From: a virus
Reading direction: 5' to 3' (one strand)
Length of the DNA stretch: 12,891 bases
Virus genome (UHGV): UHGV-1804406
This document shows positions 5,781 to 10,206 of the stretch, piece after piece (within the stretch, counting starts at the first letter, position 1; each line of letters begins with the position of its first letter). The notes below the pieces were generated by a model. That model searched no databases and had not been told where the DNA came from. It saw only the letters and a list, made by a program, of their open reading frames with translations. A program made the position numbers and the translations under genes.

Positions 5781-8297
5781 TTACCTGCGATTGTTCGCAT
5801 TCCAGATAAGCCCACCGGGCTGGATTGCCCTGGCGATACCATCGTTGACAGATTTGTTAATCACCTGCTGATACGCCTTACCCAGCCTGTCTCCGTCATT
5901 TTGCTGCTGTGCGCCACCGGAGGCATTCTCGACGGTCACAGGCGCGTACACGCTCACCCCGAAAGGTGCTGCAGCGGGACCTGTGCCACTGCCCCCGACA
6001 AGCCCTCCTGTGGCGTACCCTTTCATCATCCGGTAAAGGTTGCCGACGCCGATCCGACTGGTAGCCTCTTTGGTGAAAACAAATTCGCCACGGTGAACGA
6101 CACCTGCGGGTTCATATTTCCCACCCGAACCGGTGAATCCCCCGCTGGCAAACCCCAGCGCCGTGGAGGCTGAATCTACCAGTCCGGTCATTGCCTGCTT
6201 CAGCAGAATTTGTGTCAGCATGGAGAGCGTGGAGCGGGTAAAGTCAGCCCAGTCAGCCTTTCCGCGTGTCAGCATGTCTGCCATATTCTGCCCGATGCCA
6301 TCAAACGTACTGGTGGCAACCGACTTCATCTGGCCATAAGCATCTGAAGCGGAATCAACATAATCTGCCCATGCGGATTTGGCCCCGGATTGCCAGTCGT
6401 CCCGCAGCTTATCCTGCTCGGCGTAATACGCCTGCAGCGCCTGCAGCTCATTCTGATAACCAGCGTCGTTCTCCGAACCGCCACCATTTTTCCAGCCCTG
6501 AAGAAGCTGGTCCTCCTCATTGCGGCGTTGTGCTGCACGACTGCTCATACCAGCACTTTCCGCAAGGGCTCGGGTTTTCTCGCCGATCTGCGTGACGTAT
6601 TTTTGGGACGTATCCTGCAGGCGGTTAAGCCGCTCCTGCGCCACTATCTGATCGCCAAGCTTCGCATTCAGCTCCGCACGGGAAAGCACCTCACTTTTAC
6701 TGGCCAGCAGGGATTTTTCCTCAGCAGAAAGCGTTCGGGTCTTCGCGGCCTCTTCCAGAACCGTAAAGCGGGACTGCTGACGCCACAGCTCCTGACGCTG
6801 CTGGCTGATGGTGTCATTGATGCTCTTATGCTCCTGCAGGGTGCGCAGCTGTGTCTGTAGCTCCAGCGTCTGGGCACTGGCCGTATCGGTGGCACGGGCA
6901 CCTGCGGGGGTTCTGATTGCCGGGGTCTTCTTCGGCTTTTTAAGGGTGTCTTCGTACTCTTTTTTCGCGGCAGCCAGGTTGATGTTGTAGTCAGCCTGGA
7001 GGATCCGCCCCTCTTTCAGCGCCTTGTTGAGCTCGCTCTGCCTGGCCGTGTATTTCTCCAGTGCCGTCTGCGTTTTGGCATAGTTTGCCTGTGCCTGCGC
7101 AGCATACTTCTGGCGATCCGATTCCGCAGCCGCTTCGCGCGATGCATTCTCTTCGTTCGCCCTGGCAATTCCCGCCTGCTGCTGCGCCATATCCAGCGCA
7201 AGCCTGGCCGTTTCGCGGTCATTCCAGAATCGGGCGCGAGCCTCATCATTGACATATCGGTCACCTTTACGCAGGTTCCAGATTTCATCAGCTTTTTTGA
7301 ACGCGGCTTCGGCTTTTGCCACCATCTCCTGCGCGGTGTCAGGTCGGCCAATATCGAGGGCTGCATCCCACATCGACTTGAAGGCGCGCTTCAGGGAGTC
7401 CGCTGAAGACTCTATCGTCCCCATATTGTCGCGGATGGCTTTGGTCTGATCGTTGAATCCGGCTGTAGCCGCCTCGTTAGCCGCCTGCAGTGCGCCAGCC
7501 TCATCACCGGCACGCTGCAGCTGCGCCACATGGGCAATCTGTTCTGCGGTAACGTTATGGAACTGCTGGGCCATCGCGATCAGGCCCGATGTCGGGTCAG
7601 TTGCGAGCTTGCCGTAGGCTGCAGCGACTTTCTCCACCGGCACGCCGGAGGCATCAGTAAACCGCGCCACCGCCTGGCTCATTTCATCAAAGCGCGAGCC
7701 AGTACGCACACCTGCATTGATAAGCTCGGTCAGGGCTTCACTGGTCTGGTTGAACGTTAGCCCCGCTGCCTGTCCGTTCCGCGCCAGTGCCAGCATGCGG
7801 TCAGCTGTCAGTCCGGCTGTGTTCCCCGACAGTACCAGCGTTTTGTTGAAATCAGACAGAGTGGAAGAGCCCTGGTACCAGGCATAGAACAACGCGCCCG
7901 TTGCAACGGACAATGCACCAATGCCGACCATCAACGGGGAAATCGTCCCCAGTAACGCCCGGAATGTCGGAATGATCCCGCCAAAGGAGTCCTTAACCTG
8001 ACCGCCCTGCTGAAGCAGAATCAGCCAGGGGTTCTGCCCACCCGCCAGCTGCGTAGCCACGTCAGTAAACTGCGCCGGGAGCATACGCATCGCTGCGTTA
8101 TACTGACCCACTGAAATACCGGCCTTACGCGCGGCGTTCTCCTGGCGGCTAAAGGACTGCTGGATCCGTAGCGCTTCGTCGTTCGCCGCGCTGCCAGTCT
8201 GCTTTAATTCTTTTTTGACGTAGTTAAGCTGCTCGTTAAATTTCGTCGAGTTAACGTCAAGGTTAACGACCAGATCACCCACTGCCGTCTGGGCCAT
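5781..8297 (-). CDS. H: Tail tape measure protein H
   Basis: 838-aa ORF with SD AGGAGG. Long colinear blocks match recalled lambda gpH (GISVGQYNAAMRMLPAQFTDVATQLAGGQNPWLILLQQGGQVKDSFGG; C-terminal GGKYEPAGVVHRGEFVFTKEATSRIGVGNLYRMMKGYATGG). Central region is Ala/Gln/Glu-rich and helical. Start overlaps the T-frame 3' end by 23 nt. Confidence 0.95.
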   Translation of the reverse strand: MAQTAVGDLVVNLDVNSTKFNEQLNYVKKELKQTGSAANDEALRIQQSFSRQENAARKAGISVGQYNAAMRMLPAQFTDVATQLAGGQNPWLILLQQGGQVKDSFGGIIPTFRALLGTISPLMVGIGALSVATGALFYAWYQGSSTLSDFNKTLVLSGNTAGLTADRMLALARNGQAAGLTFNQTSEALTELINAGVRTGSRFDEMSQAVARFTDASGVPVEKVAAAYGKLATDPTSGLIAMAQQFHNVTAEQIAHVAQLQRAGDEAGALQAANEAATAGFNDQTKAIRDNMGTIESSADSLKRAFKSMWDAALDIGRPDTAQEMVAKAEAAFKKADEIWNLRKGDRYVNDEARARFWNDRETARLALDMAQQQAGIARANEENASREAAAESDRQKYAAQAQANYAKTQTALEKYTARQSELNKALKEGRILQADYNINLAAAKKEYEDTLKKPKKTPAIRTPAGARATDTASAQTLELQTQLRTLQEHKSINDTISQQRQELWRQQSRFTVLEEAAKTRTLSAEEKSLLASKSEVLSRAELNAKLGDQIVAQERLNRLQDTSQKYVTQIGEKTRALAESAGMSSRAAQRRNEEDQLLQGWKNGGGSENDAGYQNELQALQAYYAEQDKLRDDWQSGAKSAWADYVDSASDAYGQMKSVATSTFDGIGQNMADMLTRGKADWADFTRSTLSMLTQILLKQAMTGLVDSASTALGFASGGFTGSGGKYEPAGVVHRGEFVFTKEATSRIGVGNLYRMMKGYATGGLVGGSGTGPAAAPFGVSVYAPVTVENASGGAQQQNDGDRLGKAYQQVINKSVNDGIARAIQPGGLIWNANNRR

Positions 8298-9026
8298 AGC
8301 GCACGCCTCCTGAAATACCTGCAGCCTTCGCCATCAGCGTATCGTCATCCGGCTCATCAACGTCGATGCTTTCCGATACAGGGGAAAGGATGCTGAAACT
8401 GTCCGGTGTTAATTCCGGATCAGCAAAAAACAGGGTTGAGATGGTGTAGAGCAAACCGGAGAAATGAGCATCCAGCTGCGCATCATGAAAGTAATTGTCC
8501 TGGTAGAAGATTTTCCAGTCGCCGTATTCCGTTGAGGACATGCCAGCAAGCATGGCACGCCAGTCCGGGCGACCGAACTCACGCGCCAGTTTCATGGCAA
8601 ACTTCAGCTCACTGGCGAGGGCTTTTCCGCAGTAACAGGTTCAGCGGGTTCATTACGTTCTTCACCGGGCTCAGCCTGGTCATCAGTGACCGGCGCAATC
8701 ATCCCGGACAGGAGTTTCACCTTATATTCGGCTTCGGCAACAAGTTCGGTCGGCCATGTCTGCATGACCTCATCCTGAATCTGCTCCACTTCCGCCGCCG
8801 CGTTTTCTCCCTGCGATCCTTTAAGCGCGTGGCCATGCCAGAGTGACATTGCCACCAGATATGCTCCACTCTTCACGGTAAGGGTAATGGCAGCCTGAAA
8901 ATCACCAGCTTCAACCGCCTCAAGTTGTTTCAGGTATTCGAGGTATTCAATACGCTGCAGCGCCGACAGCTGGAACAATGTGACGCTGCTGCCGTTACTT
9001 TCAAGCAGCTCGCTCTTTAGAAACAT
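8275..9026 (-). CDS. T: Tail assembly chaperone G-T, inferred -1 programmed-frameshift fusion (G frame shifting into the T frame near 8622..8628)
   Basis: The downstream ORF (stop 8277..8275) is in the -1 frame relative to G and is open only from 8640 on the mRNA, so the shift must occur between 8640 and 8604. The T-frame translation ...KLAREFGRPDWRAMLAGMSSTEY... matches the recalled lambda gpT region. The heptamer present is G GAA AAG. Confidence 0.7.
8604..9026 (-). CDS. G: Tail assembly chaperone G
   Basis: 140-aa ORF, MFLKSELLESNGSSVTLFQLSALQRIEYL... with VAMSLWHGH and C-terminal PAEPVTAEKPSPVS resembling lambda gpG. SD GGAG 4 nt upstream of the ATG. Confidence 0.9.
   Translation of the reverse strand: MFLKSELLESNGSSVTLFQLSALQRIEYLEYLKQLEAVEAGDFQAAITLTVKSGAYLVAMSLWHGHALKGSQGENAAAEVEQIQDEVMQTWPTELVAEAEYKVKLLSGMIAPVTDDQAEPGEERNEPAEPVTAEKPSPVS
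8622..8628 (-). promoter_or_regulatory. Candidate -1 ribosomal frameshift slippery heptamer G-GAA-AAG (mRNA sense), six codons before the G stop
   Basis: Plus strand cttttcc is GGAAAAG on the mRNA. It occupies the same position relative to the end of G as lambda's G GGA AAG (recalled) and is the only slippery-like site in the permitted window. Confidence 0.5.
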
Positions 9027-9042
9027 AATTACTCCGGGGGAA

Positions 9043-9058
9043 CGGGGCTTTCGCCCCG
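9043..9058 (-). promoter_or_regulatory. GC-only stem-loop (CGGGGC-GAAA-GCCCCG on the mRNA) between the V stop and the G Shine-Dalgarno
   Basis: Six G:C pairs with a GAAA tetraloop, 4 nt after the V stop codon; not followed by a U tract. Confidence 0.5.
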
Positions 9059-9062
9059 GTTA

Positions 9063-9800
9063 TCAGGAAACAGTGACTTTGCAGATCGCCACAAAGTTAC
9101 CGTCATTGCTCATTACGATGATCTCGACGGTGCCTGCCGCCACGCCGGTAACAGTCAGGGTATTGCCGCTGACGGTGACCGTTGCTTTTGACGGATCAGA
9201 ACTGGCTACGCGGAAAGACTTATCTGAAGCACTTGCTGGCAGGACAGAAACAACCAGTTGCGTCGTGGCCGCGACAGCCACAGCCGCCGTGGATTTATCC
9301 AGGCTGATCCCCGTAACGGCAATCGGCGCGGTACCACTGTCTTCGGCCAGCGATGGTTTGCCATTGTTGGTGATTTTTGCCGTGCGGGTCATGACCTCTT
9401 TAGACGAGATGGTCTTGCCGAGACTGCTCACCCAGCCCTTAAAGACATCGACAACACCATTCGGATATTTGATTTTATACCCCTTCACGGTGCCTTCATC
9501 GAACCAGTTCACCAGGTCCTGCTGACCGGAATCCTCCGGCATCCATGCGAGCGTCAGGTTGGTTTCACCGGCTGATTTCTGCCCCTGCATGGTTGATGTC
9601 CAGTCAGCATTCTCATCATCGATGTAGGTATCATCCTCAGATTCGGCGGTCAGTTCACCGGGCTGCAGGTCTTTAATCTTTGCCAGACGCAGCCAGTCAA
9701 CATCTGAAAGCGGGTTGGCATAAGGGTCACCGGTTCCGGTGTAAACCCATAGGGTGGTACCAGCACCTTTTGTTGGTGCCAGCGGGTTTGGTGTGGCCAT
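9063..9800 (-). CDS. V: Major tail protein V with C-terminal Ig-like (Big_2-type) domain
   Basis: 245-aa ORF with [46 protein letters not shown] and KSAG...TLAWMP blocks match recalled lambda gpV. C-terminal Ser/Thr/Val-rich beta-like segment. Confidence 0.9.
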
Positions 9801-9807
9801 AGGGTCC

Positions 9808-10206
9808 TCACATGTCGTAAGTAATGGAATATTTCAGGTCGGCAGAACTCCACAGCGCCATATCGTCATCGCGCTGGTAGTCATAACCCTGCTGAACCAT
9901 TGTGGTGATAAGGGATTCAAGACCCGGAACCTCTGCGAGAACCGGATACACCCGCGTTTCCATCCAGTCATCCAGATCAGAATCAGGCACCTGAGCCCCA
10001 AGAAAGACTTCGATATGCAGAATGGCCTGCCAGCTGTCTGCATCCAGTTCTTCCCCGGTGTATTCCGCATCTGTCAGATAGACGGCTACAGCAGGGAAAT
10101 CTTCCTCTTCGAGCACTGCAGGCCTGCCGTCAAAATAAATGGCGTCAGTACCAATCGCGCTTTCAAGCGCGTCAATAATTACCTTGCGGATATCGCTGTG
10201 TTTCAT
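9808..10206 (-). CDS. U: Tail terminator protein U
   Basis: 132-aa ORF; FDGRPAV...[20 protein letters not shown] and LHIEVFL.AQVPDS.LD.WME blocks resemble lambda gpU. Its ATG (10206..10204) overlaps the Z stop (10205..10203) as ATGA. Confidence 0.9.

What the first reader, a model, noticed from the sequence alone, without database searches (positions are those of the whole stretch)
8604..8640. G-T programmed frameshift site appears to be a variant heptamer (G GAA AAG) rather than lambda's G GGA AAG
The T frame is open only from 8640, so the -1 shift that makes the G-T fusion must occur within the last 12 codons of G. The only slippery-like sequence there is GGAAAAG (plus strand cttttcc, 8622..8628). 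It is at the same position relative to the end of G as lambda's slippery site but differs at the third nucleotide. After a -1 slip the P-site Glu tRNA would need a G:U pair at the middle position, so efficiency may differ, or the site may work differently.
Basis: partly seen in the sequence, partly recalled or inferred. Interest (0 to 1): 0.45.

Follow-up and report, generated by a model that had tools for sequence, protein, structure and literature searches.

The report
Known variant phage tail frameshift site
The G GAA AAG sequence near the end of this phage's tail-chaperone gene G is real and is almost certainly where ribosomes slip back one base to make the G-T fusion protein, but it is the usual form of this site in relatives of phages N15 and phi80 and is already annotated, so it is not a new oddity.

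Summary
G is 9026..8604 (-). The T frame is open only from 8640. The only slip-prone heptamer in the 37-nt overlap is G_GAA_AAG (8628..8622), 15 nt before the G stop, exactly as in lambda. The window is 100% identical here to phage mEp237 and 92% to N15. The N15 GenBank record already marks this same GGAAAAG as the 'slippery sequence for -1 translational frameshift', and phage LLS annotates it too.

In 152 related loci, GGAAAAG sits at the homologous place in 39 of 48 protein clusters (90% identity). Lambda's GGGAAAG is in 5. The codon before it varies in amino acid but always ends in G. Glu is always GAA and Lys always AAG, so selection acts on the nucleotides.

Published in vitro work used G GAA AAG as a 'less slippery' comparator to G GGA AAG, so the site probably needs help. 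A stable predicted three-way-junction RNA starts 5 nt downstream and is the most stable 80-nt segment in 4 kb. Covariation support for it is weak.

Verdict: a real site, already known, of low to moderate interest. Efficiency and the role of the structure are untested.

The parts
8622..8628 (-). Frameshift heptamer G_GAA_AAG. 0-frame codons are GAA (Glu, P site) and AAG (Lys, A site). After the -1 slip the tRNAs face GGA and AAA. G8622 is read twice.
   Evidence: It is identical to the N15 feature 'slippery sequence for -1 translational frameshift' and to the LLS feature. It is conserved in 94 of 107 unique contexts.
8604..9026 (-). Gene G, tail assembly chaperone, 140 aa.
   Evidence: ORF list and translation. 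Pfam Phage_TAC_2, E = 6.5e-52.
8275..8640 (-). Open T frame (-1 relative to G). The predicted GT fusion is 9026..8622 joined to 8622..8275, 250 aa, with junction ...PVTAEK/ALASELK...
   Evidence: Pfam Phage_tail_T on residues 164-241 of the fusion.
8641..8643 (-). TGA that closes the T frame upstream and sets the 5' limit of the shift window.
8542..8616 (-). Predicted three-way-junction RNA 5 nt 3' of the heptamer. Helix 1 pairs 8616-8607 with 8551-8542. Helix 2 pairs 8603-8599 with 8592-8588. Helix 3 pairs 8587-8573 with 8568-8554. It is a candidate frameshift stimulator.
   Evidence: MFE -45.3 kcal/mol, z = -4.66. It is the most stable of 1307 80-nt windows in 4 kb. z = -2.65 against synonymous-codon shuffles. 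The same architecture appears in lambda, phi80 and L030. Covariation is weak.
8593..8595 (-). Internal ATG in the T frame. The mEp237 and HK225 records use it as the start of a separate 'GT' CDS. It is not conserved: lambda and phi80 have CTG here.
9063..9800 (-). Upstream neighbour: major tail protein V.
   Evidence: Pfam Phage_TTP_12 plus Big_2.
5781..8297 (-). Downstream neighbour: tape measure protein H. It overlaps the end of T by 23 nt.
   Evidence: Pfam TMP_2 plus Tape_meas_lam_C. ORF list.

Best explanation
This is the programmed -1 ribosomal frameshift site of a lambda-type tail assembly chaperone pair (G and G-T). Most ribosomes read G to its stop at 8604. A small fraction slip back one base on G_GAA_AAG. 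In that slip, tRNA-Lys re-pairs perfectly from AAG to AAA, and tRNA-Glu re-pairs from GAA to GGA, keeping positions 1 and 3 with a G:U pair in the middle. These ribosomes continue in the T frame and make a 250-aa G-T fusion. Because the heptamer is intrinsically weaker than lambda's G_GGA_AAG, the stable RNA structure that starts 5 nt downstream (8616..8542) probably pauses the ribosome and raises the shift to a useful level. What is shown: the gene identities, the frame geometry, the position, phase and nucleotide-level conservation of the heptamer, and the thermodynamic stability of the downstream structure. What is inferred: that the fusion is made, its frequency, that both tRNAs slip together, and that the structure stimulates.
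For: Geometry: the overlap is 37 nt with only one slip-prone heptamer.

Gene identity: G is Phage_TAC_2 and the T part is Phage_tail_T, lying between V and H.

Existing annotation: N15 marks GGAAAAG as the -1 slippery sequence, and LLS annotates a joined CDS with 'minus-one programmed translational frameshift site GGAAAAG'.

Conservation: GGAAAAG is at the homologous in-phase place in 108 of 124 distinct GT proteins. That is 39 of 48 clusters at 90% identity, 19 of 27 at 70% and 7 of 10 at 50%. The preceding codon is GCG, CCG, CTG, GTG, ACG or TTG, so the amino acid varies but the last base is always G. Glu is always GAA and Lys always AAG. The A-site Lys is invariant in the protein alignment.

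No independent start: the ATG at 8595 is CTG in lambda and phi80.

Mechanistic precedent: A_AAG is the best -1 tetramer in E. coli, and G_GGA_AAG rises from 0.28% alone to 3.8% and 43% with stimulators (PMC4066793). X_XX = G_GA heptamers are known to work elsewhere (PMC5009743).

Structure.
Against: There is no protein-level evidence for this phage or, in the papers I could read, for any GGAAAAG-type G-T site. In vitro, AUG GAA AAG without stimulators gave mainly 0-frame product (PMC6924986). The proposed stimulator is poorly supported by covariation. RNAalifold finds no consensus over all 107 sequences. Paired cells are 79% against 77% in shuffles. A tree-aware count gives only 2 compensatory events against 40 disruptive ones. 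The structure is absent in some GGAAAAG-bearing clades. Much of its stability comes from the encoded amino acids: synonymous shuffles still average -33 kcal/mol. One relative has A_GAA_AAG (L108) and two have G_GCA_AAA (L074, L076). Full P-site re-pairing is therefore not strictly required.
Confidence: 0.85

Rival explanations
1. The site and product are the same, but only tRNA-Lys slips (A_AAG tetramer or GAA_AAG hexamer mechanism). tRNA-Glu does not meaningfully re-pair, and the first G of the heptamer is irrelevant to the mechanism.
For: A_AAG alone supports up to 5.6% shifting with a strong pseudoknot, and C_AAG gave 0.93% (PMC4066793). NNA_AAG hexamers are used naturally in IS1222 and B. 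subtilis cdd (PMC5009743). Relatives with A_GAA_AAG (L108) and G_GCA_AAA (L074, L076) exist. [quoted passage not shown]
Against: The first base of the heptamer is G in 94 of 95 unique GAAAAG contexts, although the codon it ends encodes Ala, Pro, Leu, Val or Thr. That is hard to explain unless the G:C pair at position 1 of the shifted P-site codon matters. The junction peptide is the same under both mechanisms, so sequence data cannot separate them.
Confidence: 0.2
2. T is made as a separate protein from the ATG at 8595, as the mEp237 and HK225 records annotate, and no frameshift is needed.
For: An ATG-initiated ORF 8595..8275 exists and is annotated as a CDS in two records.
Against: The ATG is replaced by CTG in lambda, phi80 and many relatives. 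No Shine-Dalgarno sequence precedes it: the upstream sequence is GAGCTGAAGTTTGCC. The T frame stays open and conserved upstream of the ATG back to the heptamer (KALASELKFA). From my own knowledge (Levin et al. 1993, not readable here), T in lambda is made only as G-T.
Confidence: 0.03
3. The frame change is made at the RNA level, by RNA polymerase slippage on the A run, or at another place in the overlap.
For: None specific. The product would be the same size.
Against: The run is only four A's. From established knowledge, transcriptional slippage needs much longer homopolymer runs. No other in-phase heptamer in the overlap allows re-pairing.
Confidence: 0.01

Closest known systems
Phage N15 genes 14/15 (GenBank AF064539) and their close relatives mEp237, HK225, phi80 and LLS
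   Same: The heptamer GGAAAAG is the same, with the same 15-nt distance to the G stop and the same V-G-T-H gene order. Nucleotide identity is 92% for N15 and 100% for mEp237. The site is explicitly annotated as the -1 slippery sequence in N15 and LLS.
   Different: Nothing of substance. The window is essentially the mEp237 sequence. mEp237 and HK225 annotate T as a separate CDS from an internal ATG rather than as a joined frameshift product.
Phage lambda G/G-T frameshift (G_GGA_AAG; about 4% shift; G:GT about 30:1)
   Same: The G and T proteins are homologous (53% identity over the fusion). The position and phase of the heptamer and the distance to the stop are the same. The A-site codon and tRNA-Lys are the same. 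A similar three-way junction is predicted downstream. The ratio is known to matter for tail assembly (PMC5009743; PMC3296357).
   Different: Base 3 of the heptamer is A, not G. The P-site tRNA is therefore tRNA-Glu (GAA to GGA, G:U in the middle) instead of tRNA-Gly (GGA to GGG, cognate). In vitro the A variant is much less slippery.
NNA_AAG hexamer and A_AAG tetramer -1 sites (IS1222 G_CGA_AAG, B. subtilis cdd A_CGA_AAG)
   Same: They rely on the shift-prone E. coli tRNA-Lys moving from AAG to AAA, with an imperfectly re-pairing P-site tRNA.
   Different: Here positions 1 and 3 of the shifted P-site codon still pair and position 2 is a G:U wobble. The site is therefore intermediate between a hexamer and a canonical heptamer.
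Heptamers with X_XX = G_GA (insect-specific flaviviruses, some umbraviruses, dianthoviruses and mesoniviruses)
   Same: The first three bases depart from the X_XXY_YYZ rule in the same way (PMC5009743).
   Different: Those are eukaryotic RNA viruses, and in them the A-site tRNA and the stimulators are different.
IS911 and dnaX frameshift signals
   Same: They are bacterial -1 sites ending in A_AAG that depend on a downstream structure and/or an upstream SD-like element 10 nt away. From my own knowledge, the IS911 structure is a three-way junction. The window has a predicted three-way junction with a 5-nt spacer. Distant relatives have GAGG 10 nt upstream.
   Different: The window has no SD-like element. 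The role of its structure is untested and weakly supported by covariation.

Membership tests
Lambda-type G/G-T tail assembly chaperone with programmed -1 frameshift | The upstream ORF is a gpG-family chaperone. | tested here: met
   Pfam Phage_TAC_2, E = 6.5e-52, full-length match.
Lambda-type G/G-T tail assembly chaperone with programmed -1 frameshift | The downstream ORF is in the -1 frame, encodes a gpT domain, overlaps the 3' end of G and has no conserved start of its own. | tested here: met
   Phage_tail_T on the fusion. The overlap is 37 nt. The internal ATG is not conserved.
Lambda-type G/G-T tail assembly chaperone with programmed -1 frameshift | The pair lies between the major tail protein gene and the tape measure gene. 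| tested here: met
   V is 9063..9800 and H is 5781..8297, both on the minus strand.
Lambda-type G/G-T tail assembly chaperone with programmed -1 frameshift | A slip-prone heptamer lies in phase inside the overlap and is conserved among homologues. | tested here: met
   G_GAA_AAG at 8628..8622, conserved in 39 of 48 clusters at 90% identity.
Lambda-type G/G-T tail assembly chaperone with programmed -1 frameshift | The G-T fusion protein is made at a few percent of G and is required for tail assembly. | not testable with these tools
   This needs protein analysis or genetics.
Canonical X_XXY_YYZ tandem-slippage heptamer | Bases 1-3 are identical, so the P-site tRNA re-pairs at its first two positions. 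| tested here: not met
   Bases 1-3 are G, G, A. GAA to GGA leaves a G:U at the middle position.
Canonical X_XXY_YYZ tandem-slippage heptamer | Bases 4-6 are identical, so the A-site tRNA re-pairs. In E. coli the best case is A_AAG. | tested here: met
   Bases 4-7 are A, A, A, G. For the motif hierarchy see PMC4066793.
Stimulated bacterial -1 PRF signal (dnaX or IS911 type) | A stable RNA structure starts about 5-9 nt 3' of the heptamer. | tested here: inconclusive
   The thermodynamic signal is strong and is shared by lambda and phi80. Covariation is weak and the structure is not universal.
Stimulated bacterial -1 PRF signal (dnaX or IS911 type) | A Shine-Dalgarno-like element lies about 10 nt 5' of the heptamer. 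| tested here: not met
   There is none in the 30 nt upstream in the window. One is present in distant relatives only.

The most novel reading that the evidence does not exclude
The classical lambda-family G-T frameshift is not a stimulator-free heptamer. In the lambda/N15/phi80 clade it depends on a conserved downstream three-way-junction RNA, and in the Gifsy-2/mEp460-like clades on a GAGG placed 10 nt upstream. These stimulators are what let most members use G_GAA_AAG, a heptamer that is poorly slippery on its own. Because both tRNAs on this heptamer (Glu and Lys) carry 2-thiouridine at position 34, such phages might also be more sensitive than lambda to the host's tRNA thiolation state.
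Probability: 0.3. Interest if true: 0.4.

Novelty: already known. Interest (0 to 1): 0.2.

Why it matters
The ratio of G to G-T controls tail assembly in lambda-like phages, so the exact slip site and its efficiency matter for phage biology and for correct genome annotation. Several records, including mEp237 and HK225 and the E. coli RefSeq (PGAP) records, still list T as a separate gene. The site itself is not news. The modest added value is threefold. First, the non-canonical G_GAA_AAG, not lambda's textbook G_GGA_AAG, is the prevailing form in this family. Second, its first base is under nucleotide-level selection. Third, candidate stimulators exist that could explain how a weak heptamer reaches a useful frequency.

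Tried and rejected
I searched the overlap for a canonical X_XXY_YYZ heptamer and found none.

I tested whether GGAAAAG is rare in the window. It is not: 3 copies against 1.8 expected.

RNAalifold on all 107 unique junctions gave no consensus structure, only 4 trivial pairs.

Helix 2 of the predicted junction is not supported: there are many disruptive changes and no compensatory ones.

An Rfam scan of 8400..8800 gave only two chance hits far below threshold, so no curated family covers this element.

I searched upstream of the window's heptamer for an SD-like stimulator and found none.

The promoter and terminator scan of 8200..9150 showed nothing relevant.

I could not read Levin et al. 1993, Ravin et al. 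2000, Xu et al. 2004 and 2013 or Licznar et al. 2003. Statements about them come from my own memory or from reviews that cite them. Full-text searches for GGAAAAG with 'frameshift' returned only unrelated papers.

Full report
**What is in the sequence**

On the minus strand, a 140-aa ORF runs from the ATG at 9026 to the TGA at 8606..8604. It is a full-length match to Pfam Phage_TAC_2, the lambda gpG family (E = 6.5e-52). The frame one base behind it carries a TGA at 8643..8641 and is then open from 8640 to 8275. A conceptual fusion made by a -1 shift has Phage_tail_T, the lambda gpT family, on residues 164-241. Upstream is the major tail protein V (9063..9800) and downstream the tape measure protein H (5781..8297). 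This is the lambda V-G-T-H arrangement.

The two frames overlap by 37 nt. In the G frame the overlap reads CCT GTT ACT GCG GAA AAG CCC TCG CCA GTG AGC TGA. I listed every in-phase heptamer in it. G_GAA_AAG at 8628..8622 is the only one where the A-site tRNA can re-pair perfectly (AAG to AAA) and the P-site tRNA keeps two of three positions (GAA to GGA). No canonical X_XXY_YYZ is present. The heptamer ends 15 nt before the G stop, exactly as lambda's G_GGA_AAG does.

The 7-mer by itself is not rare: 3 copies in the window against 1.8 expected. Its meaning rests on its phase, position and conservation.

**Where the sequence comes from, and what is already annotated**

Window 8200..9100 is 100% identical to phage mEp237, 92% to N15 and 91% to HK225. 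31 of 5426 complete E. coli genomes carry the module as a prophage.

The N15 GenBank record (AF064539) has a misc_feature at 10027..10033 labelled 'slippery sequence for -1 translational frameshift'. Its gene 15 is labelled 'downstream half of translational frameshift product'. Reading those bases gives GGAAAAG. Phage LLS (PQ299149) annotates a two-piece joined CDS and a 'minus-one programmed translational frameshift site GGAAAAG'. The variant heptamer is therefore already recognised. By contrast, mEp237, HK225 and the E. coli RefSeq (PGAP) records annotate T as a separate CDS from an internal ATG.

**How general it is**

I fetched 15 annotated phage loci. I also fetched 63 loci from one-genome-per-species bacterial contigs and the 80 best viral contigs. 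In each I located the G stop, the T-frame opening and the in-phase NNNAAAR heptamer. The counts for the 152 usable loci are:

- **GGAAAAG:** 108 of 124 distinct GT proteins. That is 39 of 48 clusters at 90% identity, 19 of 27 at 70% and 7 of 10 at 50%.
- **GGGAAAG (lambda form):** 5 of 48 clusters at 90% identity.
- **AAAAAAG:** CP-1639 and Stx1 phages.
- **GGCAAAA followed directly by TAG:** two loci.
- **GGGAAAA:** two loci.
- **AGAAAAG:** one locus.

The viral sample is biased towards relatives of the query. Even so, phages as distant as Gifsy-2, mEp460 and a Providencia phage (31-37% GT identity) have G_GAA_AAG in otherwise different contexts.

The codon before GAA is GCG (57 unique contexts), CCG (16), CTG (16), GTG (3), ACG (1) or TTG (1). 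The amino acid differs but the last base is G every time. Glu is always GAA and Lys always AAG. The Lys is one of 35 invariant columns in the protein alignment. This is selection on nucleotides, as expected for a recoding signal. The conserved first G argues that the shifted P-site codon GGA is actually used.

**How it most likely works**

E. coli tRNA-Lys is the classic -1 shifter. A_AAG is the best tetramer and G_GGA_AAG is among the three best heptamers. Its shift frequency is 0.28% alone, 3.8% with the IS911 stimulators and 43% with the IS3 pseudoknot. A_AAG alone reaches at most 5.6% with that pseudoknot and is near background without it (PMC4066793).

Heptamers whose first three bases are G_GA are listed in the Atkins et al. 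review as intermediates between hexamer and heptamer sites (PMC5009743). Peng et al. compared exactly these two sequences in a reconstituted E. coli system without stimulators. AUG GGA AAG shifted readily. AUG GAA AAG, 'unfavorable ... second-position mismatch', gave mainly 0-frame product (PMC6924986).

Lambda needs roughly 4% shifting, a G:GT ratio of about 30:1 (PMC5009743; PMC3296357). A G_GAA_AAG site that must deliver a comparable ratio therefore probably needs a stimulator. That step is inference.

**A candidate stimulator**

The 89 nt starting at the heptamer fold into a three-way junction that begins 5 nt after it. Helix 1 pairs 8616-8607 with 8551-8542. Helix 2 pairs 8603-8599 with 8592-8588. 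Helix 3 pairs 8587-8573 with 8568-8554. The MFE is -45.3 kcal/mol, z = -4.66, and none of 200 dinucleotide-preserving shuffles folds as well.

Evidence in favour:

- Of 1307 sliding 80-nt windows over 4 kb of the V-G-T-H region, the most stable one starts 3 nt after the heptamer. It is -44.7 kcal/mol against a mean of -22.0 (sd 5.5), and it has the largest GC-corrected residual.
- Against shuffles that keep the T protein and resample synonymous codons, the native sequence is still more stable: -44.7 against -33.4 (sd 4.3), with 1 of 300 shuffles as low.
- Lambda, phi80 and a Pluralibacter prophage fold into the same architecture. Gifsy-2 has a different long hairpin.
- In 17 of 48 representative loci, the most stable window of the whole locus starts 6-16 nt after the start of the heptamer.

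Evidence against:

- RNAalifold finds no consensus over all 107 unique sequences.
- For the named structure, 79% of cells pair against 77% in column shuffles.
- A parsimony count on a tree built from the rest of the protein finds only 2 compensatory events, 27 consistent single changes and 40 disruptive ones. The probability of at least 2 compensatory events with permuted partners is 0.02.
- Helix 2 is not supported.
- mEp460 and the Kosakonia/Phytobacter group show no such structure.
- Sharma et al. also scored a hairpin for the lambda gpG cluster but found it no more stable than the local average.
- No Rfam family covers the region.

I rate the structure as plausible but unproven.

**Alternatives**

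- **Separate initiation of T at ATG 8595.** This is unlikely. The ATG is CTG in lambda and phi80. There is no Shine-Dalgarno sequence. The conserved T-frame peptide KALASELKF starts at the heptamer, upstream of that ATG.
- **Transcriptional slippage.** This is implausible on a run of only four A's.
- **A-site-only slippage.** This sub-mechanism cannot be excluded and is favoured by the rare A_GAA_AAG and G_GCA_AAA relatives. The near-invariant first G argues for P-site re-pairing.
- **What proteomics can and cannot settle.** All sub-mechanisms give the same junction (...AEK/ALASEL...), so proteomics can confirm the fusion but cannot tell them apart.

**Verdict**

It is already known, and it is the normal state of this phage family rather than a departure from it. 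The open points are quantitative: how efficient the site is and what stimulates it.

Noticed in passing
L012, L013, L049, L059, L060, L061, L064, L066-L069, L076 and L078: the 14 nt before the heptamer: In the distant clades (Gifsy-2, mEp460, Leclercia, Phytobacter, Ewingella, Edwardsiella and others), a GAGG or GGAG lies exactly 10 nt upstream of the heptamer. It is always built from a Glu GAG codon followed by a G-initial codon, although the neighbouring amino acids differ. This is the spacing of the dnaX SD-like stimulator. The window and its clade lack it.
   Followed up: partly
L032-L037, L040-L043, L048 and L056-L058: G-T junctions with the same heptamer and 3' end of G as phage lambda sit on short, low-coverage contigs in assemblies of unrelated bacteria, including Kitasatospora, Pseudomonas, Shewanella, Neobacillus, Oceanobacillus, Chromatium, Pseudoxanthomonas and Psychrobacter. 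This is almost certainly lambda control or vector DNA contaminating those assemblies.
   Followed up: no
window 8275..8595 (-); mEp237 CDS mEp237_014 and HK225_014; E. coli RefSeq (PGAP) records: Public records annotate the T part as a separate 106-aa CDS starting at a non-conserved internal ATG, in two cases named 'tail assembly protein GT'. They should instead carry a joined -1 frameshift product. The annotation is inconsistent.
   Followed up: partly
L074 (Kluyvera), L076 (Ewingella), L075 (Providencia), L014, L073 and L077: In some relatives the heptamer is followed directly by the G stop codon (G_GCA_AAA TAG, G_GGA_AAA TAG, G_GAA_AAG TAG). In others the stop is 3 nt away. An adjacent stop codon could itself act as a pause or stimulator. 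G_GCA_AAA leaves almost no P-site re-pairing.
   Followed up: no
L108 and L142 (viral contigs): These are single-base variants inside otherwise GGAAAAG-type clades: A_GAA_AAG (L108, preceding codon GCA) and G_GGA_AAA (L142). They are natural tests of base 1 and of the A-to-G exchange at base 3.
   Followed up: no
window 9035..9062 (-), between V and G: A GC-rich hairpin with a GAAA loop (GGGGC GAAA GCCCC) lies between the V stop and the G start. N15 annotates it as a putative rho-independent terminator and HK225 as a stem-loop. It has no T run, and the terminator scan did not call it.
   Followed up: no
window 8275..8297 (-): The tape measure gene H starts at ATG 8297, preceded by AGGAGG, and overlaps the last 23 nt of the T frame. 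Ribosomes that have frameshifted therefore terminate inside the start of H.
   Followed up: no
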